Source: Eubacterium sp.
Lineage (GTDB): Bacteria; Bacillota; Clostridia; Lachnospirales; Lachnospiraceae
DNA: 64,000 bases
NCBI GenBank assembly: GCA_047242425.1
Contig: JBKTKJ010000001.1
Span: 1,529,120 to 1,593,119, forward strand
Direction of reading: 5' to 3'
The notes below the pieces were generated by a model. It saw only the letters and a program-made list of their open reading frames with translations. It ran no database searches and was not told the origin of the DNA. Position 1 is the stretch's first letter; the number at the start of each line of letters is the position of its first letter. This document shows positions 33,914 to 64,000 of this stretch, piece after piece. A program made the translations under genes and the position numbers.

Positions 33914-34669
33914 TTATAAAATCTTGGACAGGAACAATCTGGTTCTGTCATTTTGGGGATGATCAAAAATTTCTGTCGGAGTTCCTTCTTCAATAATTTT
34001 TCCTTCGTCCATAAATATTACTCTGGATGCAACCTCTCTGGCAAATCCCATTTCATGTGTAACAACTACCATTGTCATTCCCTGCTTTGCAAGATCTTTC
34101 ATTACATTCAGAACTTCTCCTACCATTTCCGGGTCAAGGGCTGATGTGGGCTCATCAAAAAGCATAACATCCGGATCCATACAAAGCGATCTTGCAATAG
34201 CGACTCTCTGCTTCTGTCCACCTGATAATTGTGCCGGATAGGCTCCTGCCCTATCCTCCAGATTGACCACCTTAAGAAGTTCCATTGCTTTCTTTTCAGC
34301 CTCTTCTTTTGACTTTTTTAATAACTTCATCGGTGCTATTGTCATATTCTTCAGAATAGTCATATGAGGAAAAAGATTAAAATGCTGAAAAACCATTCCC
34401 ATCTTCTGTCTGTGTTTATTAATATTCACTTTTTTATCAGTAATATCGACTCCTTCAAAAGTAATTACCCCTTCTGTTGGAATTTCCAACAAATTAAGAG
34501 CTCTTAGCATTGTAGATTTACCACTTCCGGAAGGTCCGATAATAACTACCACTTCGCCGGATTCAATGTTAAGACTTACACCATCCAGCGCTTTTATGGC
34601 GCCACCTTTATAATATTTTTTTACGTTTTCAACAACAATAAGAGGTGAATTTATATTATCTTTCATCAT
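33914..34669 (-). CDS. amino acid ABC transporter ATP-binding protein
   Basis: 251 aa, GlnQ/PAAT type. [35 protein letters not shown]. Confidence 0.93.
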
Positions 34670-35384
34670 TTCTCAGCCTCCTTTCAAGTATACCTACAAG
34701 CCACGTAAAGAACATGACCATAATAAGATAAATCAATGCCACTGATATCAATGGGAAAAAGGCTTTATATGTTGCTGACCTTATTATATCTCCGCCTTTT
34801 GTCAACTCTGCAATTCCAACATAGCCTGCTACTGATGTCTCTTTTAACAAGACAATAAATTCATTTGCCAATGTGGGCAAAACATTTTTAAACGCCTGCG
34901 GAATAATAACATATAACATGGTCTGAACATAGTTAAATCCCAGACTTCTCCCAGCCTCAAATTGTCCGGCATCTATGGACATAATTCCACTTCTAAAAAT
35001 CTCCGCCACATAAGCACCGGAATTAATACCGAAAGCAATTGAAGCAACAATCAAATCATTATCCATCCATACCAGAACAATGTAATACATAATCATAATC
35101 TGTACTACAACAGGCGTCCCCCTGAAAATCGTCAGATAAATCTTAGCTATTAAGTTTAAAATCCAGACTATGACTTTTCCCACCCCTCTTGGCATTGCAC
35201 TATACTGCTTGTCATATGTAGATCTGATAATTGCCACTAAAGCACCGATTACAATACCAATGATTAAAGCAAAAAAAGTGATTTTTAAAGTCCATACAAC
35301 ACCATCGGAAAGATATTTCCATCGATTATCCGTTATGAATGTTTCATTTATATTATTCTGTAAATCATTAATCCAATTTTGCAT
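34656..35384 (-). CDS. amino acid ABC transporter permease (HisMQ type)
   Basis: 242 aa with EAA-like loop ([20 protein letters not shown]). Confidence 0.9.
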
Positions 35385-35444
35385 TTTATCCTCACATCAT
35401 ATAGAAAAAGGCTGTCGGAATCCAACAGCCTATAAACTAATCAA

Positions 35445-36227
35445 TTATTCAGCCTTTATGTATTTATCTAAAATAGACTGGATTGTTCCATCTTCTTTCA
35501 GTTCTTTTAAAGCTTTGTTAATAGAATCTTTTAACTCAGTATTGCCCTTCTTGATTGCAATAGCATAATCTTCCGTTACATATTCTGTATCAAGAATCTT
35601 AAGACCTTCATTCGCCTTTACAAATTCTTTTGCCGGCTGATTGTCAATTACTACACAATCGATCTTGCCTGAAGATAATGCTGCAACTGCATCTGCTCCC
35701 TTAGGATATCTCTTAACTGTGCCCAGTTTTTTCTTTTCAATATCAGAAGTACAGTAGATATCACCTGTAGTACCTGTCTGAACACCGACTGTGTTATTAG
35801 CACCTTTCTTTGTTAAATCATCTGCTGTCTTTATATCGGAATCATCCTTAACAATAACAACCTGAACACCTGTTGCATAGGAATCAGAGAAATCAACATT
35901 CTTCTCTCTATCAGGTGTAACGGTCATACCTGCAATACCAACGTCTGCCTTGCCTGTATCTACCGCTGTAATAATTGAATCAAAATTCATATCTTTGATT
36001 TCCAGTTCCATATCAAGCTTATCAGCTATAGCTGCCGCAATTTCAGCATCAATACCTACGATTTCATTTCCTTCGTGATACTCATAAGGTGGAAACTCAG
36101 CATTTGTTGCCATAACCAATTTTTCTTTACTTTCCTTGCTCTCTTCACTTGTTTCCTTGCTTCCACATGCACTAAGCATTGTTACTGACAAGGCTAAAAC
36201 CATTATTAATGAAATAATCTTTTTCAT
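35445..36227 (-). CDS. amino acid ABC transporter substrate-binding lipoprotein
   Basis: 260 aa. Lipobox LSAC-GS, SBP_bac_3 pattern (FPPYEY, GIDAEIA, IAGMTVTPDREKNVDFS). Confidence 0.9.
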   Translation of the reverse strand: MKKIISLIMVLALSVTMLSACGSKETSEESKESKEKLVMATNAEFPPYEYHEGNEIVGIDAEIAAAIADKLDMELEIKDMNFDSIITAVDTGKADVGIAGMTVTPDREKNVDFSDSYATGVQVVIVKDDSDIKTADDLTKKGANNTVGVQTGTTGDIYCTSDIEKKKLGTVKRYPKGADAVAALSSGKIDCVVIDNQPAKEFVKANEGLKILDTEYVTEDYAIAIKKGNTELKDSINKALKELKEDGTIQSILDKYIKAE

Positions 36228-36307
36228 AATATTGTTATCCTCCTATTTTTACATTTGTTTTGATGAAACACAACCTCTGTTGCAGTGCTCCTTTGCAAAC
36301 TATGAAT

Positions 36308-36336
36308 ATTATACAAACTTTTAAATTTAATTGCAA
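36308..36336 (-). promoter_or_regulatory. sigma-A promoter (extended -10) of the amino-acid ABC operon
   Basis: Minus strand TTGCAA-17 nt (ending TG)-TATAAT, about 80 nt upstream of the ATG at 36227. Confidence 0.5.
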
Positions 36337-36454
36337 TACTTTAATAACCTTACAAAATTTTGTAAAAACTTTATATTTTAACCTGTATCTTAAGGAAAAA
36401 CGTTAAGCTACATACTTGTAAATGATATTTCATAAAAACTCTTTAAACATAATA

Positions 36455-36480
36455 AATGCGACCAGAAAACTGGTCGCATT
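36455..36480 (-). terminator. terminator after surface protein gene
   Basis: aatgcgaccag-aaaa-ctggtcgcatt, perfect 11-bp stem, 20 nt downstream of the stop at 36501. Confidence 0.7.
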
Positions 36481-36500
36481 ACCATAATTTTTTTAATTAT

Positions 36501-37589
36501 TTATGTTTCGTCCTTGATCCATGTTGCATAATAAATCGCATCTCCTGTCGGTGTATAGTTTCCAGTGATTCCGCTTGTAGCTGTGCTGCTTTCTGACCAT
36601 CCCTGAAATGTATATCCACTCCTTGTCGGTGTTGGCAACGCAAAGTTATATCCACTTGCTGTTATCACATACTCCGGTTCTACATTTCCACCATTTGCAT
36701 TGAATGTTGTTTTATAAAATGTTTTACTTATGGCTGTTGATACATTTCCCGCTGCATCTTTTACCAGAAGATAATATGTACCGGCAGATAATACAGTTTC
36801 ATCTACATAAACAGATGTTGCAGGTGTCACAGGTATATAATCATCATCTGACGGATTACTGTTTGTCCCCCAATAGTATCCTGCCACATTCGCAGTATCG
36901 CTCAACACTAGCTGGACCAACTGACTTGTTGTCACATTATTATGAGGTCTTATTTCGCCTGTTGGTGCTGTAACGTCTTCCCATATTGCATACAATGTTT
37001 TGTCCCGATCTGCTTTAAACATTGTTGTAGTGCCATATGATGCCGTTTTATCTTCTGACCATCCTCTAAGAACATATCCAGTCCTCGTTGATTGTGGAAC
37101 TCCACATATCTTTCCTCTCTGTGCCATAAGGCAAGTAGGTGTAGAACTTCCATCGTTCAAATCAAACATTATTTGACTATAGGTCATACTATATATCGGA
37201 GATAGATTTCCACTTGTATCTATTACCTGCATATAATATGTTCCTCCTCCGATTACAGCAGCAGCAAGCGTAGTTACCGTTGGTTTACCTGCTTGATGGC
37301 CCGGTTCCAGTTCAACGAACCTTAAGTTTGTTGGACGTGTTCCCCAATAATATCCAGCTACACCCACATCATCATTCAATGTTAAACTAATAAGTGGGTA
37401 AATCATACCACTATATGTGGCTGTTGCCATAGAACCTGTTGGTGCTGTAGTATCAGGATTTGTGGAAGTTATTTGAGTATCTCCATTTACCACCGCTGCC
37501 TTTGCCTCTGCACTGCATACCGATAACATCACCATCATCATTGCCAGCGCAAGTGTTGTTGAAATGATTTTTTTTAATTGTTTTCTCAT
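36501..37589 (-). CDS. secreted protein with two InlB B-repeat (Listeria-Bacteroides repeat) modules
   Basis: ORF track 36501..37661. ATG at 37587-37589 (MRKQLKKIISTTLALAMMMVMLSVCSAEA signal peptide) has a GGGGGG SD. Two tandem modules each end in TR(T/S)GY.(L/F).GWSE. Confidence 0.75.
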   Translation of the reverse strand: MRKQLKKIISTTLALAMMMVMLSVCSAEAKAAVVNGDTQITSTNPDTTAPTGSMATATYSGMIYPLISLTLNDDVGVAGYYWGTRPTNLRFVELEPGHQAGKPTVTTLAAAVIGGGTYYMQVIDTSGNLSPIYSMTYSQIMFDLNDGSSTPTCLMAQRGKICGVPQSTRTGYVLRGWSEDKTASYGTTTMFKADRDKTLYAIWEDVTAPTGEIRPHNNVTTSQLVQLVLSDTANVAGYYWGTNSNPSDDDYIPVTPATSVYVDETVLSAGTYYLLVKDAAGNVSTAISKTFYKTTFNANGGNVEPEYVITASGYNFALPTPTRSGYTFQGWSESSTATSGITGNYTPTGDAIYYATWIKDET

Positions 37590-37798
37590 TCCTGTTCCCC
37601 CCTTTTCTTTTTTGTTATAACTTAGTATTTGCAAAGTAAAAATCAATTTGGTAATTACCAATATAACTGTTTAAAATTATTGCAAATAAATTATACCTTA
37701 TTTCTATATTTAAATACAGCACTGAAATATTGCTTTTGAAACAATTTAGACCATTTTTGTCCTTGTGTGTTTATTTTCGTTTTGTATATATAAATACA

Positions 37799-38347
37799 CT
37801 ATTTTGCCGGTATATATTTCTTTATCATTAATGTTACACCACAAGCTAGTGCAAACAAATAACCATTTCTCAACTCAGAGAAATATCCTTTCCAACCGTC
37901 ATCTCCCGCAGAAATAACCTCTGGCAGGAGTTTGAATGCGTCAATGAAATTTACATCTATATAATTTTTCAGTTCTCGATAACATACTATTGTACATGAT
38001 AAATGATGTGCAGCCAGCACCATCAATAACGATATGATACTACAAATAATAATGCCTTTCTTATCAAGCGTGTGACCAAGTATTTTATATCCCTTAATCG
38101 CAAAGAAAACAATTAACCATCCTGCTATCTCTGCCATGTTTCCCGAAAGATAAATAATAATCCACACACCTACACCCAAAAGTGAACCAATAAGTGCACC
38201 AATAATACCTGTTATCACATTAGATGATTCTTTCACTTCCAAATTTCCATATCCCTTTTCATCTGTCACATCAGCATTTGTTTCTGATGCATTATTGTTT
38301 TCTAAAACTTGTGTTTCTTTATCGACTGTCTTTTCTTCTAAATTCAT
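37799..38347 (-). CDS. hypothetical membrane protein (acidic N-terminus, about 4 TM)
   Basis: 182 aa with no family recognised; hydrophobic segments are clear. Confidence 0.5.
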   Translation of the reverse strand: MNLEEKTVDKETQVLENNNASETNADVTDEKGYGNLEVKESSNVITGIIGALIGSLLGVGVWIIIYLSGNMAEIAGWLIVFFAIKGYKILGHTLDKKGIIICSIISLLMVLAAHHLSCTIVCYRELKNYIDVNFIDAFKLLPEVISAGDDGWKGYFSELRNGYLFALACGVTLMIKKYIPAK

Positions 38348-38499
38348 ATTATTTCTCCCTTTGTATTTCCGCAGTCATCGTAAATGCTTTTTCCAACCTA
38401 CCACACACTTTTTAGGTCTTCCTGACTGTTTCTATAAGTATATCATATTTCCAATTATATAACAATTATTCATCAGTTTTTCCAGCTAAACACTGACCC

Positions 38500-38516
38500 T
38501 ATTTATGATATGGCTG
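38500..38516. repeat. direct repeat copy 1 (distal att-like site): TATTTATGATATGGCTG
   Basis: Exact 17-bp copy of 40755-40771, which is the rlmH stop plus its last five codons. Lies 12 nt beyond the GNAT stop. Confidence 0.85.
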
Positions 38517-38528
38517 TGCATATCATAC

Positions 38529-39050
38529 CTATATGAGGTTTGTGTATGCTCTGCTCTCCCATTCTTCCCTCAACATGGAATAACATAAAGTATCACTTTT
38601 ATCTCGGGCATGTTTTCTGAGTCTACCTTCAAAAGTAAATGAGCATTTTTCTAAAACGCGAATACTTCTTTTATTGTGTGACCTCACCCACGCAGCAATT
38701 ACCCCAAAATTTTGTTCTCTAAAACCGTAATCTATCATACGATTCAAGGCTTGAGTTGCATATCCTTTATTACGATATTGATACTTTATTGCATATTCTA
38801 ATTCCATATAACCATCATAACGGTTCATATCTCCAATATGAACAAATCCTGCCAGGCAATTATCCTCTTTACTAACAATCACTTTATAGTTATTATTATT
38901 CTTCCACTGTTTTATAACATTATGACTATCTTCAACAGATTCAAAACCATGTATTCCACTTTTTCTCAAGTCATCATCCAGACACATTTCGTATAAAGTA
39001 AAGGCATCACCCTCTTGCCAGTTTCTTAATATCAAATCTTCTGTTTCCAT
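38529..39050 (-). CDS. GNAT family N-acetyltransferase (RimJ/RimL-like)
   Basis: 173 aa. LILRNWQEGD..., acetyl-CoA motif YRNKGYATQALNRMIDYGF. Confidence 0.85.
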   Translation of the reverse strand: METEDLILRNWQEGDAFTLYEMCLDDDLRKSGIHGFESVEDSHNVIKQWKNNNNYKVIVSKEDNCLAGFVHIGDMNRYDGYMELEYAIKYQYRNKGYATQALNRMIDYGFREQNFGVIAAWVRSHNKRSIRVLEKCSFTFEGRLRKHARDKSDTLCYSMLREEWESRAYTNLI

Positions 39051-39077
39051 AGTTGGTCTCCTTACATCATATCTTTT

Positions 39078-39995
39078 TTATAAAACTTGTTCAAACGCTC
39101 CACTATTAATTATACTCTCCACAGCAGTAATCGCAGTATCATAACTAACAAACTTATCCAATAATTTTGATGTGAGCTGTTCATAATCCGTTCGGTAAAC
39201 CTGCTCATCCACAATATGTCTTAATATCATTGGAACATCTATCTCCGGTTGAGCCGATAGACAAGTTTTAGATTTCGTTCTAACCAAACGCACTTCTTTT
39301 GCTAATTTGCTGAAATTATCATCTTGTGGTACCAGTGGCAATAGTTTGTATATGTCATAAATATGCCTTGAATGCTTTCGCACTCTATTTCTTAAATAAT
39401 AATCACATATCGCAAAAACTTTATCTATCAATGTCCGATTAATCTCCTGTACTTTCATAGTAAATGGAGACAATTGATATTCTTCTATAAGTTCAGGAGC
39501 TTCATATTCCAACATTTCACCGATTAAACTACTAACCGGCAGTTCAATTGTTGGAAAAGATACAGCGATAAATGACGTTTCGACTATTACTACCGGTACA
39601 ACAGCTTCATCTATTAAAGACAACACTGTATCATAAGCGATTTCATAACGATTATAATCTCTTCTGCTTCTAGTGTTTTCTATATTTTGAATATGCATTC
39701 CAAGTTGTTCAGCGATTTCCACGATTGCATATTTCAACTTTTTCTTCTGCCCTTGAGATAATGAAATATCAATTGTTATATCGATATCCTCCGAAAATCT
39801 ATTAATTACCCTATAGCACTTTGATAAGGAAGTTCCACCTTTAAACACAATATAAGGTATTCGTTTTGATAGTTCCCTAAGAATCACAGTTACATAATAA
39901 TCTTTCTCAACAATATCTGAAGCTATACCTTTATGATATGCCACGAGCTCAATAGCTTCACTAAATTGTTCTTTTTGTTTATGCAGATATTCCAT
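39078..39995 (-). CDS. abiEii: nucleotidyltransferase AbiEii/AbiGii toxin (type IV TA / abortive infection)
   Basis: 305 aa. IVEKDYYVTVILRELS...VFKGGTSLSKCY..INRFSEDIDI, typical of DUF1814/AbiEii. Confidence 0.85.
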   Translation of the reverse strand: MEYLHKQKEQFSEAIELVAYHKGIASDIVEKDYYVTVILRELSKRIPYIVFKGGTSLSKCYRVINRFSEDIDITIDISLSQGQKKKLKYAIVEIAEQLGMHIQNIENTRSRRDYNRYEIAYDTVLSLIDEAVVPVVIVETSFIAVSFPTIELPVSSLIGEMLEYEAPELIEEYQLSPFTMKVQEINRTLIDKVFAICDYYLRNRVRKHSRHIYDIYKLLPLVPQDDNFSKLAKEVRLVRTKSKTCLSAQPEIDVPMILRHIVDEQVYRTDYEQLTSKLLDKFVSYDTAITAVESIINSGAFEQVL

Positions 39996-40605
39996 TCAAT
40001 AACCCTACTTCATACATATTTTTATATATCTTATCCGGATAATAATCCAAATATGGCTGTAAATCATAAAAAGTAATTGCTATTTTTTTCATATATAGGA
40101 GTACTCGTTCAGATAATTCCTTCTTTGACACTTCAGCAACTATGTCTATATCTTTAATTAAATCAAGAAATCTTAATATTTGATAATTCTCTTCCGTAAT
40201 CTCTGCTCGCGGTTTCCTTATAATCACTCTTTCAGAACCAAGTGTAGTCTCCCGATAATCTTTAGAAGCCTTGTTTGTTATAACTTCACAAACATTTGAT
40301 ACCTGTGTAGTCAACATCAATTGATTCGCAAAAGCTACACCTCCAATATAACCACAACGAACATCTTGTTCCATCAAATATTTCTTCTCAACTACTTTTG
40401 AAAATTCCGGTACAGAACCCGACTTAAATGCGCTCTTCTTTGGAATATAATATATTCCTGTATCGTATCGTTTCAACCTACCTATATCTACAAGCCTTTT
40501 TATTTGCTGTCTTATATAATTTATTGACATATTCTCATACTGAATCTCCGAAACAAATATCGGCTCATTTTCTCCATATATTTCTAATAAAAAATCATAT
40601 AACAT
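39979..40605 (-). CDS. abiEi: AbiEi-family antitoxin / transcriptional autoregulator
   Basis: 208 aa with N-terminal wHTH-like region (IRQQIKRLVDIGRLKRYDTGIYYIP). 17-nt overlap with abiEii, upstream position. Confidence 0.75.
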   Translation of the reverse strand: MLYDFLLEIYGENEPIFVSEIQYENMSINYIRQQIKRLVDIGRLKRYDTGIYYIPKKSAFKSGSVPEFSKVVEKKYLMEQDVRCGYIGGVAFANQLMLTTQVSNVCEVITNKASKDYRETTLGSERVIIRKPRAEITEENYQILRFLDLIKDIDIVAEVSKKELSERVLLYMKKIAITFYDLQPYLDYYPDKIYKNMYEVGLLNGISA

Positions 40606-40647
40606 ATAATCACCTCAAATTTTTCAGAAGTTTTTTTCTTCACTTTT

Positions 40648-40675
40648 ATTATACATTTAATAAAAAAATAATCAA
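40648..40675 (-). promoter_or_regulatory. candidate promoter of abiEi-abiEii
   Basis: Minus strand TTGATT-16 nt (ending TG)-TATAAT. The -35 lies inside the 42-bp palindrome. Confidence 0.4.
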
Positions 40676-40712
40676 CAAAAAAATAAATATTAATATTTAT
40701 TTTTTTGTTGAT
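40671..40712. repeat. 42-bp perfect palindrome (21+21, no spacer)
   Basis: atcaacaaaaaaataaatatt / aatatttatttttttgttgat, checked base by base. Lies between the rlmH stop and the abiEi start. Confidence 0.9.
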
Positions 40713-40753
40713 AAAATTTTATTTCAGTTATGCCTTTTTAATTAAAACCTCCG

Positions 40754-41233
40754 TTATTTATGATATGGCTGATTATGAATAATCCGGTAACTCCGATATA
40801 TCTGCTCTAACAAAATCACGCGCATCAACTGATGTGGAAATGTCATTTTTGAAAAACTCAGTTTAAAATCAGCTTTCTTTGAAATTGACGAATGAAGTCC
40901 TAGTGAACCGCCAATCACAAAGACCATATGACTGGTACCGCTAATCCCCAATTTATTTATTTTATCTGCCAGTTCCAGTGAATCCGGATTTTCCCCATTT
41001 ATTTCCAGCGTTATCACATATGCATCTTCCGGTATATACTTTACTAGTCTTTCAGCTTCCTTTTGCTTAACGATTTCCTTTTCATTTTCTGTGCAGTTTT
41101 CTGTTGTTTTTTCATCTGATACCTGAATTATTTCTAATTTACAATATCTCGACAATCTTTTTGAATATTCCTTTATGGCATCTGTATAAAACTGTTCTTT
41201 AATTTTTCCTACTGCTAACACTGTAATTTTCAT
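40754..41233 (-). CDS. rlmH: 23S rRNA (pseudouridine1915-N3)-methyltransferase
   Basis: 159 aa SPOUT MTase (MKITVLAVGKIK...FVIGGSLG...LLEQIYRSYRIIHNQPYHK). Confidence 0.93.
   Translation of the reverse strand: MKITVLAVGKIKEQFYTDAIKEYSKRLSRYCKLEIIQVSDEKTTENCTENEKEIVKQKEAERLVKYIPEDAYVITLEINGENPDSLELADKINKLGISGTSHMVFVIGGSLGLHSSISKKADFKLSFSKMTFPHQLMRVILLEQIYRSYRIIHNQPYHK
40755..40771. repeat. direct repeat copy 2 (inside the rlmH 3' end)
   Basis: TATTTATGATATGGCTG. In coding orientation CAGCCATATCATAAATA, encoding Q-P-Y-H-K-stop. Confidence 0.85.
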
Positions 41234-58514: not shown

Positions 58515-59423
58515 TTAATTCCTTTTAAAATAAAGCATTTTTTCCGGGTTTATTCTGCCCCATCCCTGTCTGTTTTTATCCATTTTCATATCAATTGCAG
58601 TATTCTTTATTATTTTTTTACATTCCACATTGGAAAGTTCAGGATATTGCGACAGTAAAAGGCACAACGTGCCCGAAACTATGGGAGTTGCCATAGATGT
58701 TCCGCTTTTTGTAACGTATGCATAATTTTTTTTCCATAAACTGCAGCAACTATAGATCATATTGGCAGGTGCCACAACATCCGGCTTTTGTATGCATTCA
58801 GAGGTAGGACCTCTCCCCGAGTAATTCATTGTAATCTTACCATTGACAATCATCTTTATGTTATCATTCAATGCACCTACGGTAATTACTTTTTTGCTGT
58901 CTCCCGGTGTGGAGATAGTATTAATTCCCGGTCCGTTATTTCCTGCCGCAGCAACAACCACATATCCCATATCCCATAAAAGTTCAACAGCTTCCACCAG
59001 CCTTTTATTCTGTTCTCCTTCATGTCCAAAAGTACCAAAAGAAATATTTACAACTTTAATGTCCATATATCTGCCATTATCTATAATCCACCATATTCCA
59101 TCTATTACATGATCCTCTTTTCCTATTCCCTTATGATCCAGAACTTTTATAGATACTATATTGGAACGGGGCGCTACCCCTCTAAACATTCCTCCGGATA
59201 AAACTCCGTTCCCTGCAATAATCCCTGCCACATGGGTTCCATGACCTTCATCATCATAATTTTTATTTTTATTATTTACAAAATCCTTAAAACCAATAAT
59301 CCTATCATCAAAATCCGGATGTTCTGAAATTCCAGAATCCAAAACTGCCACAGTTACTCCCTGACCCATGATTCCTCTTTGGTGCAAATTATTAATTCCA
59401 AGCATCTGTCTTACTTTTCTCAT
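58515..59423 (-). CDS. S8 family (subtilisin-like) serine peptidase without signal peptide
   Basis: ORF track 58515..59456 (TTG). ATG at 59421-59423 (MRKVRQMLGI) has AAGGAA 7 nt upstream. Catalytic triad contexts VAVLDSG, HGTHVAG, GTSMATP. Size and lack of a leader resemble Bacillus intracellular serine protease. Confidence 0.85.
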   Translation of the reverse strand: MRKVRQMLGINNLHQRGIMGQGVTVAVLDSGISEHPDFDDRIIGFKDFVNNKNKNYDDEGHGTHVAGIIAGNGVLSGGMFRGVAPRSNIVSIKVLDHKGIGKEDHVIDGIWWIIDNGRYMDIKVVNISFGTFGHEGEQNKRLVEAVELLWDMGYVVVAAAGNNGPGINTISTPGDSKKVITVGALNDNIKMIVNGKITMNYSGRGPTSECIQKPDVVAPANMIYSCCSLWKKNYAYVTKSGTSMATPIVSGTLCLLLSQYPELSNVECKKIIKNTAIDMKMDKNRQGWGRINPEKMLYFKRN

Positions 59424-59555
59424 TATGCAATTCCTTGTATTCATACGTTTATACAATAATATATGACAATTTTTATTTCAGTTTAAAACAATTTGTAAAC
59501 AAGACAGGCTTTGCCACATATTATTTAGTGTAATCAAAATTTAGGGAGAATTATC

Positions 59556-59795
59556 ATGAGTGATTTAGCAGCAACAAACTGTGGATGCGGTTGTGAAGGA
59601 GGAAACAATAACTGTTTATTCCTTATCCTTATTCTCTTATTCTGTGGCGGCTGTGGCTGTGGTAACAATAACGGATGCGGCTTCGGTGGCGGAAATGACT
59701 GCTGTAGCATAATCTGGATTATTTTACTTCTCAGCTGCTGTGGAAACGGCAATAATGGCATCTTTGGTAATAACAGTTGCGGTTGCGGCTGCTAA
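59556..59795 (+). CDS. 79-aa Cys/Gly/Asn-rich protein with two hydrophobic helices (unassigned; YjcZ-like architecture)
   Basis: GGGAG SD 7 nt upstream of the ATG. MSDLAATNCGCGCEGGNNNC LFLILILLF CGGCGCGNNNGCGFGGGNDCC SIIWIILLLS CCGNGNNGIFGNNSCGCGC. Confidence 0.6.
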   Translation: MSDLAATNCGCGCEGGNNNCLFLILILLFCGGCGCGNNNGCGFGGGNDCCSIIWIILLLSCCGNGNNGIFGNNSCGCGC

Positions 59796-61944: not shown

Positions 61945-62247
61945 TCATAATCCGTGTACCATTTGAATGATTACGTTTAATACATGCGTTTCATTTTTTC
62001 CTAAACATTTACCTCCTTCGTTTTTATTTCCCCAAATATCAATATGATTAATTGGATTACCCGCACAATAAGAATACAGATTCCATGTGCTATAATTATC
62101 CTGTTCTCCCTTATAACTGTCCTGTGTCAGAAAAGTTATGTCATTCGTACTGCAATACATAGCATCCAAATAATAATGTCCTGTCAGTTCATCAGAACCA
62201 CGCCTAAAAGACCTGGCTCTGATTTTCTGATATTTGCTATTTCTCAC
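61945..62247 (-). pseudogene. orphan, degenerate RHS/YD core-end plus truncated toxin tip
   Basis: ...DELTGHYYLDAMYCSTNDITFLTQDSYKGEQDNYSTWNLYSYCAGNPINHIDIWGN parallels the end of the full RHS gene. The DPxGH cleavage motif is degraded to DIWGN and only 26 aa follow. Confidence 0.65.
62054..62194. repeat. RHS core-end repeat, copy in orphan fragment
   Basis: 141 bp aligning without gaps to 63774-63914. I counted 17 mismatches by hand (about 88% identity). Confidence 0.8.
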
Positions 62248-63049: not shown

Positions 63050-64000
63050 TCAAGAAACCGGTAATGTATAATATGGTCCGCTCGGGTTATACACTACAAG
63101 ATTTTCACCAGTAGGATAGTTTATTGCCGGTATTGGCATTCCAACATTATGCGTCTTATAATAAATTTTACTTTCTATCCAAGTTCCTCTTTGACGGATA
63201 TTTGCATAATTGGTCTTACCTGCAAAAGCGTATGTATAACCATCAAGTCTTTTATTCCACTTCTTTGCAAAATTTTTATTTTTTTTATTTGGAGTTGCTG
63301 TATTACACGAAAAAAATGTGGTTTTAGGCATACAAAATGAACTCTTATTAATCTTTTTAATATCTTTTGCTTTCAAAGTTAATTTTTTTTCATTGCTTGT
63401 TCCATCATACCCAAACGCTATTTTTCCTGGAAATCCATGCGCATAAACTGTAAAACTTGTTATTAAATCATCGCTTTCCCTCTCCTTATTAAGATATTTT
63501 ATAAGACTTTTTTTTGAATTAAAATATTTTATTTTGATTTTTTTACTAATCTTTTTCGCTTGTTTTTTAAAACTTTTCTTATCATCTTTTGTCCATCCCT
63601 GATTGGCTATTAACCAAGTGACCTTTTCCGTTGTATCGGATATATCTTTTAAATTTTTTAGTGCAGTTTCTATAAACTCATAATAAAAACCACCACTATC
63701 TTTTTTCGTTTTACTGTATACTCCGCCTGACACTACTATTTTTTCGTGCCCACTTGGATCAATATAAGCTATCGGATTACCTTCACAATACGCATACAGA
63801 TTCCATGTACTATAATTATCCTGTTTTCCTCTATAACTGTCCTGTGTCAGGAAAGTTATGTCATTCGTACTGTAATACCTTGCATTCAAATAATAACGTT
63901 CTGTCAATTCATCATAAACACCTGATGTATAACAAATCTCATTATAAAATTCTTGATTGCCTAACTTCTGTGTTTCTCCATAATCATCATATTTATATGC
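63050..64000 (-). CDS. RHS/YD-repeat polymorphic toxin, C-terminal part (N-terminus beyond window)
   Basis: The frame stays open from 64000 (AYKYDDYGETQKLGNQEFYNEICYTSGVYDELTERYYLNARYY...). The ORF-track M at 63907 is an internal TTG. Core end NPIAYIDPSGHE is followed by a 231-aa variable C-terminal domain. Confidence 0.85.
   Translation of the reverse strand, partial: AYKYDDYGETQKLGNQEFYNEICYTSGVYDELTERYYLNARYYSTNDITFLTQDSYRGKQDNYSTWNLYAYCEGNPIAYIDPSGHEKIVVSGGVYSKTKKDSGGFYYEFIETALKNLKDISDTTEKVTWLIANQGWTKDDKKSFKKQAKKISKKIKIKYFNSKKSLIKYLNKERESDDLITSFTVYAHGFPGKIAFGYDGTSNEKKLTLKAKDIKKINKSSFCMPKTTFFSCNTATPNKKNKNFAKKWNKRLDGYTYAFAGKTNYANIRQRGTWIESKIYYKTHNVGMPIPAINYPTGENLVVYNPSGPYYTLPVS
63774..63914. 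repeat. RHS core-end repeat, copy in the full-length gene
   Basis: See 62054-62194. Confidence 0.8.

What the first reader, a model, noticed from the sequence alone, without database searches (positions are those of the whole stretch)
38500..40771. SCC-like insertion at the rlmH (orfX) 3' end: exact 17-bp direct repeats flank a 2.2-kb AbiE + GNAT cargo with no recombinase
TATTTATGATATGGCTG occurs at 38500-38516 and 40755-40771. The second copy covers the last five codons and two of the three stop-codon bases of rlmH (coding orientation CAGCCATATCATAAATA, Q-P-Y-H-K-stop). In staphylococci the SCC integration site is the equivalent stretch of orfX/rlmH (GAAGCATATCATAAATGA type), duplicated as direct repeats by Ccr large serine recombinases. 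The shared core CATATCATAAAT is present here. The bracketed DNA carries only a GNAT acetyltransferase and an AbiEi/AbiEii module, like a ccr-less pseudo-SCC. An rlmH-targeted element in a spore-forming clostridial genome carrying a defence module is worth documenting.
Basis: partly seen in the sequence, partly recalled or inferred. Interest (0 to 1): 0.7.

Follow-up and report, generated by a model that had tools for sequence, protein, structure and literature searches.

The report
Recombinase-less SCC-like defence cassette at rlmH
A 2.2-kb cassette carrying an AbiE phage-defence/toxin-antitoxin pair and an acetyltransferase sits at the very end of the rRNA methyltransferase gene rlmH in a gut Eubacterium-like clostridial genome, built like the cassettes that carry methicillin resistance in staphylococci but lacking its own recombinase.

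Summary
TATTTATGATATGGCTG occurs exactly twice in the window, at 38500-38516 and 40755-40771. One copy covers the last five codons and two stop-codon bases of a genuine rlmH.

- The closest relative found (RlmH 86%) has an empty site: rlmH with a TAG stop, directly followed by the homolog of the gene that follows the distal repeat here.
- A relative at 82% carries, at the same site, an island with DUF1643 and a 555-aa large serine recombinase. Its best family matches are staphylococcal CcrB/CcrC.
- That island's termini match both ends of the window cassette. The element-side arm (GAGGTTTT) resembles the published SCCmec inverted repeat.
- The AbiE genes also occur after rlmH in a more distant species, with about half the synonymous divergence of the flanking genes. 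That points to horizontal spread.

No recombinase is encoded anywhere in the 64-kb window. The cassette is therefore a pseudo-SCC-type element, presumably integrated, and perhaps still movable, by a Ccr-like enzyme acting in trans.

Cassette-chromosome elements at rlmH are already known in Staphylococcus, Macrococcus, Enterococcus and other Bacilli. This is a new member in Clostridia, not a new kind. Excision and the trans-acting enzyme are untested.

The parts
40754..41233 (-). rlmH (23S rRNA pseudouridine-1915 N3-methyltransferase). This is the integration target. The ORF stays intact, with its TAA stop completed by the first base of the cassette.
   Evidence: PF02590 6.8e-59. NCBIfam NF000985 232.7 bits, above the cut-off of 172.
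40755..40771 (-). rlmH-proximal copy of the 17-bp direct repeat (CAGCCATATCATAAATA on the coding strand). It is equivalent in position to the 18-bp SCC integration-site sequence GAAGCATATCATAAATGA.
   Evidence: Exact match, two copies only. The SCC site sequence is quoted from PMC8407400.
40744..40753 (-). Element-side arm next to rlmH: CGGAGGTTTT. Related islands have ATGAGGTTTTT at the same place, and SCCmec has TGCGGTTTTTT. The two rlmH loci without a cassette-type junction lack it (L101, empty; L050, DUF2935 after rlmH).
   Evidence: Alignment of junctions. SCCmec inverted repeat CATATCATAAATGATGCGGTTTTTT from PMC13590631.
40745..40767 (.). Proximal terminal inverted repeat (CATATCATAAATAACGGAGGTTT). 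It pairs with 38519-38541.
   Evidence: 18 of 23 positions complementary (pair I6). Only 2 of 2,000,000 random window pairs reach this.
40663..40720 (.). AT-only palindrome (19-bp perfect stem) between rlmH and abiEi, overlapped by a promoter-like site at 40675-40648 (-). Probably the abiE promoter/operator; this function is inferred, not shown.
   Evidence: (I1).: -17.3 kcal/mol, z = -5.56.
39979..40605 (-). abiEi (antitoxin/transcriptional regulator partner). It overlaps abiEii by 17 nt.
   Evidence: PADLOC AbiEi PDLC02236 1.5e-76, full length. Weak DUF6088 match.
39078..39995 (-). abiEii (nucleotidyltransferase toxin of the type IV AbiE system). The GG[TS] and SEDIDI motifs can be read directly in the translation.
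   Evidence: PF08843 2.2e-29. PADLOC AbiEii 3.8e-82. Translation.
38529..39050 (-). GNAT acetyltransferase (Acetyltransf_3, RimJ/RimL-like), substrate unknown. Cargo linked to abiEii in a third lineage too (L049); L048 keeps only a ~30-nt remnant.
   Evidence: PF13302 3.8e-22. Only sub-threshold NCBIfam hits. L049 and L048.
38519..38541 (.). Distal terminal inverted repeat (AAACCTCATATAGGTATGATATG on the rlmH strand). It is homologous to the arm that precedes the second rlmH-end copy in L104.
   Evidence: I6. The 25-mer upstream of the core matches L104 at 19/25. That is the only hit at or above 19/25 in 2.88 million positions, and it lies at the homologous place.
38500..38516 (-). Distal copy of the 17-bp direct repeat. 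With 38519-38527 it forms the dyad TATGATATG-N6-CATATCATA. The DNA beyond it is the native rlmH downstream flank.
   Evidence: Comparison with the L101 flank.
37799..38347 (-). 182-aa membrane protein with no known family. It is the native chromosomal neighbour of rlmH, outside the cassette, with its own promoter-like site at 38465-38437.
   Evidence: Homologs lie directly after rlmH in L101 (47%) and one gene away in L050 (48%). Promoter-like site.

Best explanation
The segment 38500-40771 is a small cassette-chromosome element of the SCC type that has no recombinase gene of its own (a pseudo-SCC). I propose the following history.

- A Ccr-family large serine recombinase, encoded elsewhere (on a co-resident or visiting island like the one in L104), recombined a circular cassette into the last codons of rlmH.
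- The cassette's attachment site mimics the end of rlmH and is flanked by inverted arms (...AAACCTCAT... / ...GAGGTTT...).
- Integration left rlmH intact. The stop changed from TAG to TAA, and the 17-bp core was duplicated.
- The cargo is an AbiEi/AbiEii type IV toxin-antitoxin / abortive-infection pair with its own promoter and palindromic operator, plus a GNAT acetyltransferase.
- The toxin-antitoxin pair probably both protects against phage and stabilises the cassette.
- Both attachment sites are intact, so the cassette should still be excisable if a matching recombinase is supplied in trans.

**Shown:** the repeats, inverted termini, cargo identity, empty site in a relative, homologous termini on a recombinase-bearing island at the same site, and lower divergence of the cargo than of its flanks.

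**Inferred:** the enzyme, the direction and time of transfer, present-day mobility, and the defence phenotype.
For: - **Repeat.** The 17-bp repeat is exact, with sharp borders and only two copies. It lies on the last five codons of rlmH, the same stretch as the SCC integration site.
- **Inverted termini.** They match at 18/23, which 2 of 2,000,000 random pairs reach.
- **Empty site.** L101: rlmH with a TAG stop, then the homolog of the window's post-repeat gene.
- **Recombinase-bearing island.** L104/L105 show the same upstream synteny (RlmH 82%). After rlmH comes ATGAGGTTTTT, then a 33-nt mini-element made only of the two termini, then a second rlmH-end copy. The island beyond carries DUF1643 and a 555-aa Resolvase+Recombinase+Zn_ribbon protein. 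That protein's best NCBIfam hits are CcrB (397 bits, 1.2e-118) and CcrC (361 bits), against 136 bits for the next-best serine-recombinase model, XisF.
- **Distal arm.** The window's distal arm matches the L104 arm at 19/25, the only such hit in 2.88 million positions.
- **Proximal arm.** It matches ATGAGGTTTTT of L104 and L100, and TGCGGTTTTTT of the published SCCmec inverted repeat. The two loci without a cassette-type junction (L101, empty; L050, DUF2935 after rlmH) lack it.
- **Phyletic pattern.** The cassette is present in the window species and in the more distant L048 species (HAD 75%, Alr 73%, RlmH 79%). It is absent from the nearer L100, L101 and L102 (HAD 80-89%).
- **Divergence.** AbiEi/AbiEii dS is 0.65-0.69, against 1.2 or more (or saturated) for rlmH, yebC, HAD, alr and pemK.
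- **Cargo habit.** AbiE modules of this subfamily ride on integrase-bearing elements elsewhere.
- **Precedent.** In staphylococci, ccr-less defence cassettes next to rlmH are mobilised by Ccr in trans (PMC11470126).
Against: - No recombinase is encoded in the 64-kb window. The rest of the genome could not be searched.
- No excised circle or empty site was seen within this species. All three assemblies of it are occupied, with SNP density in the cassette like that of the flanks, so the insertion predates strain divergence.
- The distal end of the L104 island was not reached, so its recombinase is linked to rlmH by position only.
- The L104 recombinase scores well below the NCBIfam equivalog cut-offs for CcrB/CcrC (900 bits).
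- None of 44 GTDB species representatives (67% RlmH identity or less) shows a repeat of the rlmH end of 15 nt or more within 10 kb. Recombinase domains are not among the common families downstream of their rlmH. Use of this site is therefore patchy in Clostridia.
- In an abundant sister species, the 10 loci examined all have the same DNA downstream of rlmH.
Confidence: 0.78

Rival explanations
1. It is the same kind of element, but it reached this genome by homologous recombination. DNA from another Eubacterium species, spanning rlmH, the cassette and its distal repeat, replaced the resident locus. No site-specific integration ever took place in this lineage.
For: The cassette is shared with a more distant species at lower dS than the flanks. 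The rlmH-abiEi spacer is homologous between them. The cassette is fixed in all three assemblies of the species.
Against: rlmH itself shows the high dS of the flanks (1.46) right up to the repeat, so the exchange boundary coincides with the attachment site. The distal flank beyond the repeat is native, being homologous in gene content to L101. The L048 copy has lost its distal end, so it is not the donor form.
Confidence: 0.12
2. The repeat was made by another kind of integrase, for example a tyrosine recombinase of an integrative mobilisable element that targets the 3' end of rlmH. The recombinase module was later deleted.
For: Tyrosine-integrase elements typically target 3' ends of conserved genes and leave 15-60-bp repeats. 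Close homologs of this AbiE pair (62%) ride on a small element with a Tn916-type tyrosine integrase.
Against: That tyrosine-integrase element is not at rlmH. The only recombinase found at this site in the clade is a Ccr-like serine recombinase. Both termini match that island and the SCCmec inverted repeat. A phmmer search seeded with one Tn916-type integrase found no tyrosine integrase in the rlmH loci; a single seed has limited sensitivity.
Confidence: 0.05
3. It is not a mobile element. The gene order is ancestral, and the second 17-mer is a chance match or a local structural motif, such as a hairpin after the GNAT gene.
For: rlmH-abiEi-abiEii is also found in a second species. The distal repeat is part of a small hairpin just after the GNAT stop codon.
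Against: Chance expectation is 0.04 even with 2 mismatches allowed. The hairpin is weak (-6.1 kcal/mol) and has no T-run, and no terminator-like site was called. An empty site exists in the closest relative. The content after rlmH varies in every species examined. The cargo is less diverged than the flanks.
Confidence: 0.03

Closest known systems
Staphylococcal cassette chromosome elements, in particular ccr-less pseudo-SCC and tandem SCC-like defence cassettes (PMC11470126; PMC8407400; PMC13590631)
   Same: - Insertion in the last codons of rlmH, with the ORF preserved.
- 17-18-bp direct repeats covering the same five codons plus the stop.
- Imperfect terminal inverted repeats made of the rlmH core plus a G-G-T-run arm.
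- Defence-gene cargo and no recombinase in the cassette itself.
- A Ccr-like large serine recombinase plus DUF1643 on a neighbouring-type island in a sister species.
   Different: - The host is a spore-forming Eubacterium-like member of Clostridia, not a staphylococcus.
- The cassette is only 2.2 kb.
- The recombinase found in the clade is a single CcrB/CcrC-like protein scoring far below the equivalog cut-offs (397 against 900 bits).
- The arm is offset from the core by one base relative to SCCmec.
- No co-resident ccr-bearing cassette is seen in the 64-kb window.
Enterococcus cassette chromosome (ECC) of E. faecium (PMC6222049)
   Same: An SCC-like island downstream of rlmH outside staphylococci, flanked by attL/attR repeats and highly variable in cargo. 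ECC remnants bounded by att sites occur in strains that lack the full element.
   Different: ECCs are tens of kb (32 kb for the one transferred experimentally) and carry ccrAB_Ent. Their repeats are about 50 nt. The host is a member of Bacilli.
Pol-SSB-carrying genomic islands downstream of rlmH across Bacillota (PMC10061031)
   Same: Islands located by a second match to the last ~12 bp of rlmH, often tandem composites. They carry large serine recombinases and conflict-related cargo.
   Different: The rlmH-inserted examples listed there are Bacilli. The two clostridial examples (C. difficile, C. perfringens) sit in ssrA. The window cassette has no replication or recombination genes.
CIMEs (cis-mobilisable elements flanked by att sites but lacking integrase; from my own knowledge of the ICESt1/CIME work in Streptococcus thermophilus)
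   Same: A short element bounded by functional-looking attachment sites, dependent on a related element's recombinase. It arises by, or promotes, tandem accretion.
   Different: CIMEs derive from tyrosine-integrase ICEs at other targets. Here the att architecture and the related enzyme are of the Ccr serine-recombinase type.

Membership tests
SCC-type cassette chromosome element | Integrated in the 3' terminal codons of rlmH (orfX), leaving the ORF intact | tested here: met
   RlmH equivalog at 232.7 bits against a cut-off of 172. The repeat covers the last five codons plus two stop bases, and the ORF is complete at 159 aa.
SCC-type cassette chromosome element | Direct repeats containing the integration-site sequence at both boundaries | tested here: met
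   Exact 17-mer at 38500-38516 and 40755-40771, with no other copy. Same position as the 18-bp ISS quoted in PMC8407400.
SCC-type cassette chromosome element | Imperfect terminal inverted repeats that include the rlmH core and an element-side arm | tested here: met
   18/23 complementary, reached by 2 of 2,000,000 random pairs. The GAGGTTTT arm resembles the SCCmec IR CATATCATAAATGATGCGGTTTTTT.
SCC-type cassette chromosome element | Carries ccr large serine recombinase gene(s) | tested here: not met
   The cassette encodes only AbiEi, AbiEii and GNAT. No Resolvase, Recombinase or Phage_integrase domain occurs anywhere in the window. It can therefore be filed only as a pseudo-SCC-like cassette.
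SCC-type cassette chromosome element | Related genomes show the unoccupied attB | tested here: met
   In L101 (RlmH 86%), rlmH with a TAG stop is followed after 72 nt by the homolog of the post-repeat gene. There is no second same-strand core copy, only a 1-mismatch reverse-strand match inside that gene.
SCC-type cassette chromosome element | Ccr-dependent excision, circularisation and re-integration | not testable with these tools
   This needs PCR or read mining for the circle junction and restored attB, or a recombination assay.
Pseudo-SCC / tandem ccr-less cassette mobilised in trans | att sites at both ends, no ccr, and a Ccr enzyme available in the same cell | tested here: inconclusive
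   The first two points are met. Whether a Ccr-like enzyme exists elsewhere in this genome could not be checked, since only 64 kb were available. One exists at the same locus in a sister species.
Ccr recombinase family (for the L104 enzyme, not for the window) | Resolvase + Recombinase + Zn-ribbon architecture, and a score above the NCBIfam CcrA/B/C equivalog cut-offs | tested here: not met
   The architecture is present. The best hits are CcrB at 397 bits and CcrC at 361 bits, but the cut-off is 900. This makes it a Ccr-like homolog, not an equivalog. The nearest solved structure is SPbeta SprA/YokA.
AbiE type IV toxin-antitoxin / abortive infection system | AbiEii nucleotidyltransferase (PF08843) preceded by an overlapping AbiEi gene | tested here: met
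   PF08843 2.2e-29. PADLOC AbiEii 3.8e-82 and AbiEi 1.5e-76, both full length. The genes overlap by 17 nt.
AbiE type IV toxin-antitoxin / abortive infection system | Negative autoregulation through inverted repeats in the promoter; growth arrest and phage abortion | tested here: inconclusive
   A 19-bp perfect palindrome overlaps a promoter-like site upstream of abiEi. Binding and phenotype are not testable here.

The most novel reading that the evidence does not exclude
The Ccr/rlmH cassette-chromosome system is native to gut Clostridia (the Eubacterium ventriosum-like clade) as well as to Bacilli. Its attachment-site architecture (rlmH core plus GAGGTTTT arm) would then be conserved from Staphylococcus to Eubacterium. 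In these commensals it would shuttle very small recombinase-less cassettes between species, carrying defence genes (AbiE here) or possibly a BlaI/BlaR1/beta-lactamase-family set (L100). That would make the rlmH 3' end a pan-Bacillota exchange point for defence and resistance genes.
Probability: 0.55. Interest if true: 0.65.

Novelty: new member of a known kind. Interest (0 to 1): 0.55.

Why it matters
Cassette-chromosome elements are best known as the vehicle of methicillin resistance, and recently as carriers of phage-defence systems in staphylococci.

Finding the same architecture in anaerobic, spore-forming gut commensals extends the system across classes of Bacillota. The shared features are the same five rlmH codons, similar inverted arms, a CcrB/C-like recombinase and DUF1643 in a sister species.

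This yields three practical things:
- a concrete, testable pair of attachment sites and a candidate recombinase for genetic tools in hard-to-engineer Lachnospiraceae-type bacteria;
- a fixed place to look for defence and resistance cargo in gut metagenomes;
- a natural example of a minimal (2.2-kb) cassette stabilised by a toxin-antitoxin pair.

It does not reveal a new mechanism.

Tried and rejected
- **GTDB species representatives (44 rlmH loci, 67% identity or less).** No repeat of the rlmH end of 15 nt or more within 10 kb. No synteny with the window downstream of rlmH. Recombinase domains are not among the 25 commonest Pfam families in 86 downstream ORFs. A catalytic-motif regex and a phmmer search with a tyrosine integrase seed found nothing. 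These genomes were too distant to serve as empty-site controls.
- **Logan contig break between rlmH and abiEi (L002/L003).** I considered this a possible sign of a mixed empty/occupied population. I rejected it because the break falls in the AT palindrome and the two contigs overlap perfectly.
- **More distant AbiE homologs.** Homologs at 63% identity or less, from metagenomes and from the abundant P0013 cluster, are never next to rlmH. The rlmH linkage is therefore specific to this clade, not a property of AbiE.
- **Viral-contig scans.** Scans for the junctions, the dyad and the L104 recombinase gave no hits, or only 31-32% relatives.
- **Replication module in L104.** The 549-aa and 380-aa proteins have no Pfam, NCBIfam or PDB sequence match beyond a weak VapE-like hit.
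- **Population view of an abundant sister species (P0175; 24 contigs read, 10 loci shown).** The DNA downstream of rlmH is invariant, with no islands.
- **Crossover position.** In the window, the dyad centre falls on the CA at the left edge of the repeat. The second L104 site has GA there, so the crossover dinucleotide cannot be assigned from sequence alone.


Full report
**1. The observation**

- TATTTATGATATGGCTG occurs at 38500-38516 and 40755-40771 and nowhere else in the window, even with two mismatches allowed (expected 0.04).
- The ORF 40754-41233 on the minus strand is RlmH (PF02590 6.8e-59; NCBIfam equivalog 232.7 bits against a cut-off of 172).
- On its coding strand the repeat reads CAG CCA TAT CAT AAA TA, the last five codons and two stop bases.
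- Identity ends abruptly on both sides of the 17 nt. That is what a recombination core looks like. A decaying duplication would fade gradually.
- Between the repeats, all on the rlmH strand, lie abiEi (39979-40605), abiEii (39078-39995, overlapping abiEi by 17 nt) and a GNAT acetyltransferase (38529-39050).
- GC content gives no contrast with the flanks.
- The core CATATCATAAAT shared with SCC is dictated by the conserved RlmH C-terminus ...YHK*, present in nearly all 44 related species examined. It is not evidence by itself.

**2. Anatomy of the ends**

- Just inside the two repeats lie imperfect inverted repeats. On the rlmH strand these are CATATCATAAATAACGGAGGTTT at the rlmH side and AAACCTCATATAGGTATGATATG at the far side. 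They match at 18/23, which only 2 of 2,000,000 random pairs from the window reach.
- Joining the two ends gives a dyad-symmetric site...TATGATATG-CACAGC-CATATCATA.... This is the shape expected for a serine-recombinase attachment site.
- A 19-bp perfect AT palindrome (40663-40720) overlaps a promoter-like site upstream of abiEi. It is probably the abiE operator.
- A separate promoter-like site (38465-38437) lies beyond the distal repeat, in front of the next gene, a 182-aa membrane protein.

**3. Same species**

- Two other assemblies carry the same arrangement with both repeats: GCA_030844625.1 (99.65% identical over 16.5 kb) and Logan SRR31672017.
- Differences between the window and GCA_030844625.1 are spread evenly over cassette and flanks. 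The cassette is therefore older than these strains.
- A contig break in the Logan assembly falls in the palindrome and is an assembly effect.

**4. Relatives**

GTDB species representatives were too distant to help. They share 67% RlmH identity or less, have no downstream synteny, show no repeat of the rlmH end within 10 kb, and show no enrichment of recombinases. The protein database gave closer relatives, all sharing the upstream order rex-yjeF-alr-pemK-yebC-HAD-(about 200-aa ORF)-rlmH.

| Locus | RlmH identity | What follows rlmH |
|---|---|---|
| L101 | 86% | Stop TAG, then after 72 nt the homolog (47%) of the 182-aa membrane protein: an empty site |
| L100 | 85% | ATGAGGTTTTTT, then BlaI-BlaR1, a 607-aa protein, a PF00144 protein and ABC2 permeases |
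| L104/L105 | 82% | ATGAGGTTTTT, a 33-nt mini-element, a second rlmH-end copy, then an island with a large serine recombinase |
| L050 | 80% | A DUF2935 gene, then the membrane-protein homolog |
| L048 | 79% | abiEi (94% aa) and abiEii (82%) with a homologous spacer; a ~30-nt GNAT remnant; no distal repeat; unrelated downstream genes |
| L049 | not on the contig | A 1.5-kb contig with abiEii (85%) and GNAT (83%), ending inside the distal arm |
| L106-L115 (abundant sister species) | 79% | Invariant DNA after rlmH |

Details on L101: the DNA after its stop (GTGTTTAC...) resembles the DNA after the window's distal repeat (GGGTCAGTGTTTAGC...). Joining the window's rlmH to its post-repeat DNA predicts a TAG stop, just as in L101.

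Details on L104/L105: the mini-element is ATGAGGTTTTT + CCTCATATGGATATGTTATGGA. The second rlmH-end copy is GAACCATATCATAAGTAA, followed again by ATGAGGTTTTT. The island beyond it holds HTH_26, several unknown proteins, DUF1643, a 555-aa large serine recombinase and an AIPR defence gene.

**5. Link to the Ccr system**

- The L104 recombinase has the Resolvase, Recombinase and Zn_ribbon_recom domains.
- Its best NCBIfam matches are CcrB (1.2e-118, 397 bits) and CcrC (1e-107, 361 bits). The next-best serine-recombinase model, XisF, scores 136 bits. It is below the equivalog cut-off of 900, so it is a Ccr-like homolog, not a CcrB.
- The 25 nt preceding the core at the window's distal end match those preceding the second core in L104 at 19/25. 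This is the only hit at or above 19/25 among 2.88 million positions in all fetched loci, and it lies at the homologous place.
- The element-side arm next to rlmH (CGGAGGTTTT here, ATGAGGTTTTT in L104 and L100) parallels TGCGGTTTTTT of the SCCmec inverted repeat CATATCATAAATGATGCGGTTTTTT given in PMC13590631. L101 (empty) and L050 (DUF2935 after rlmH) lack it.
- The 18-bp SCC site GAAGCATATCATAAATGA, with perfect copies at both extremities (PMC8407400), occupies the same five codons plus stop.

**6. Horizontal spread**

- Between the window and L048, third-codon-position identity is 0.71-0.74 and dS is 0.65-0.69 for abiEi/abiEii.
- For rlmH, yebC, HAD, alr, pemK and the 198-aa ORF the figures are 0.40-0.63 and dS of 1.2 or more, or saturated.
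- L048 is among the more distant of the relatives (HAD 75%, Alr 73%). The nearer L100, L101 and L102 (HAD 80-89%) lack the cassette.
- The cassette is therefore younger than the species split and has landed, or been exchanged, at the same site in different species.
- AbiE pairs of this subfamily (about 62% identity) are common cargo of other integrative elements but are never at rlmH.

**7. What is missing**

- No recombinase is encoded in the window. Pfam scans covered 1-28.5 kb and 50-64 kb, and gene tables with Pfam hits covered the region between them.
- No circle or restored attB was observed.
- The far end of the L104 island was not reached.
- The crossover dinucleotide cannot be fixed from sequence.

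**8. Comparison with what is known**

- Cassette-chromosome elements at rlmH are described in Staphylococcus and Macrococcus, in Enterococcus faecium (ECC; PMC6222049) and in many Bacilli (PMC10061031). In that last paper the two clostridial examples sit in ssrA instead.
- Ccr-less defence cassettes mobilised in tandem by Ccr are described in staphylococci (PMC11470126).
- Full-text searches found no report of Ccr-type elements in Lachnospiraceae or Eubacterium. That covers only the held library.
- The window organism is named 'Eubacterium sp.' by NCBI. Its RlmH is 79% identical to that of E. ventriosum, class Clostridia. It carries spo0A, spoIVB and the spoIIIA operon.

**9. Verdict**

This is a pseudo-SCC-type cassette, without a recombinase, carrying AbiE and a GNAT at the rlmH attachment site. 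It belongs to a family that includes Ccr-like recombinase-bearing islands in sister species. It is a new member of a known kind in an unreported host class, and of moderate interest. The mechanism is inferred from anatomy and comparison and has not been demonstrated.

Noticed in passing
L100:3671-11506 (Logan ERR13998763): In a sister species (RlmH 85%), the DNA after rlmH begins with the same cassette arm, ATGAGGTTTTTT. It carries BlaI (PF03965), BlaR1 (PF05569), a 607-aa fn3-containing protein, a PF00144 beta-lactamase-family protein and ABC2 permeases. This puts a bla/mec-type sensor-repressor pair in an rlmH cassette of a gut anaerobe, a parallel to mecI-mecR1 in SCCmec. The distal end is not on the contig.
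   Followed up: partly
L104:10481-10534 (ENA ERZ28616193), same in L105: A 33-nt mini-element sits between two copies of the rlmH end. It consists only of the two cassette termini (ATGAGGTTTTT + CCTCATATGGATATGTTATGGA). It looks like an emptied cassette or a tandem attachment-site scar in front of the recombinase-bearing island.
   Followed up: partly
L104:11190-16722: The island upstream of the Ccr-like recombinase holds ORFs of 142, 549, 122, 118 and 380 aa, plus DUF1643. None has a sequence match in Pfam, NCBIfam or PDB beyond a weak VapE-like hit. By position they could be the counterpart of the SCC primase/helicase module.
   Followed up: partly
window 40663-40720: A 19-bp perfect, AT-only palindrome (z = -5.56) lies between rlmH and abiEi and overlaps a promoter-like site. 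It is probably the AbiEi operator. It also split the Logan assembly of the same species into two contigs.
   Followed up: partly
window 33914-40771 compared with L048, L050, L100, L101, L104, L106: The whole stretch between rlmH and the Big_2/polysaccharide-deacetylase gene plus spoIIIA operon differs in gene content in every related species examined. The upstream side is conserved. This resembles the variable accessory region downstream of rlmH in staphylococci.
   Followed up: partly
window 61945-62247 and 63050-63907 (- strand): Two ORFs begin with nearly the same ~45-residue segment (...YYLxAxYxSTNDITFLTQDSYxGxQDNYSTWNLYxYCxGNPI...) followed by unrelated tails. This looks like the RHS/YD-type core tips with variable toxin domains seen in polymorphic toxin cassettes. 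There was no Pfam hit.
   Followed up: no
window 59556-59795 (+ strand): A 79-aa ORF made almost entirely of Cys, Gly and Asn with two hydrophobic stretches. It lies next to a subtilase gene (58515-59456, PF00082) and two small ORFs. The function is unknown.
   Followed up: no
L053-L060 (human gut metagenome contigs): The most abundant AbiEii relative (62% identity; 2325 member sequences) lies on a small element with a Tn916-type tyrosine integrase, two DUF6462 genes and a HIRAN-domain gene. The element is inserted next to an araC/lacZ locus, sometimes in tandem with a second integrase element.
   Followed up: no
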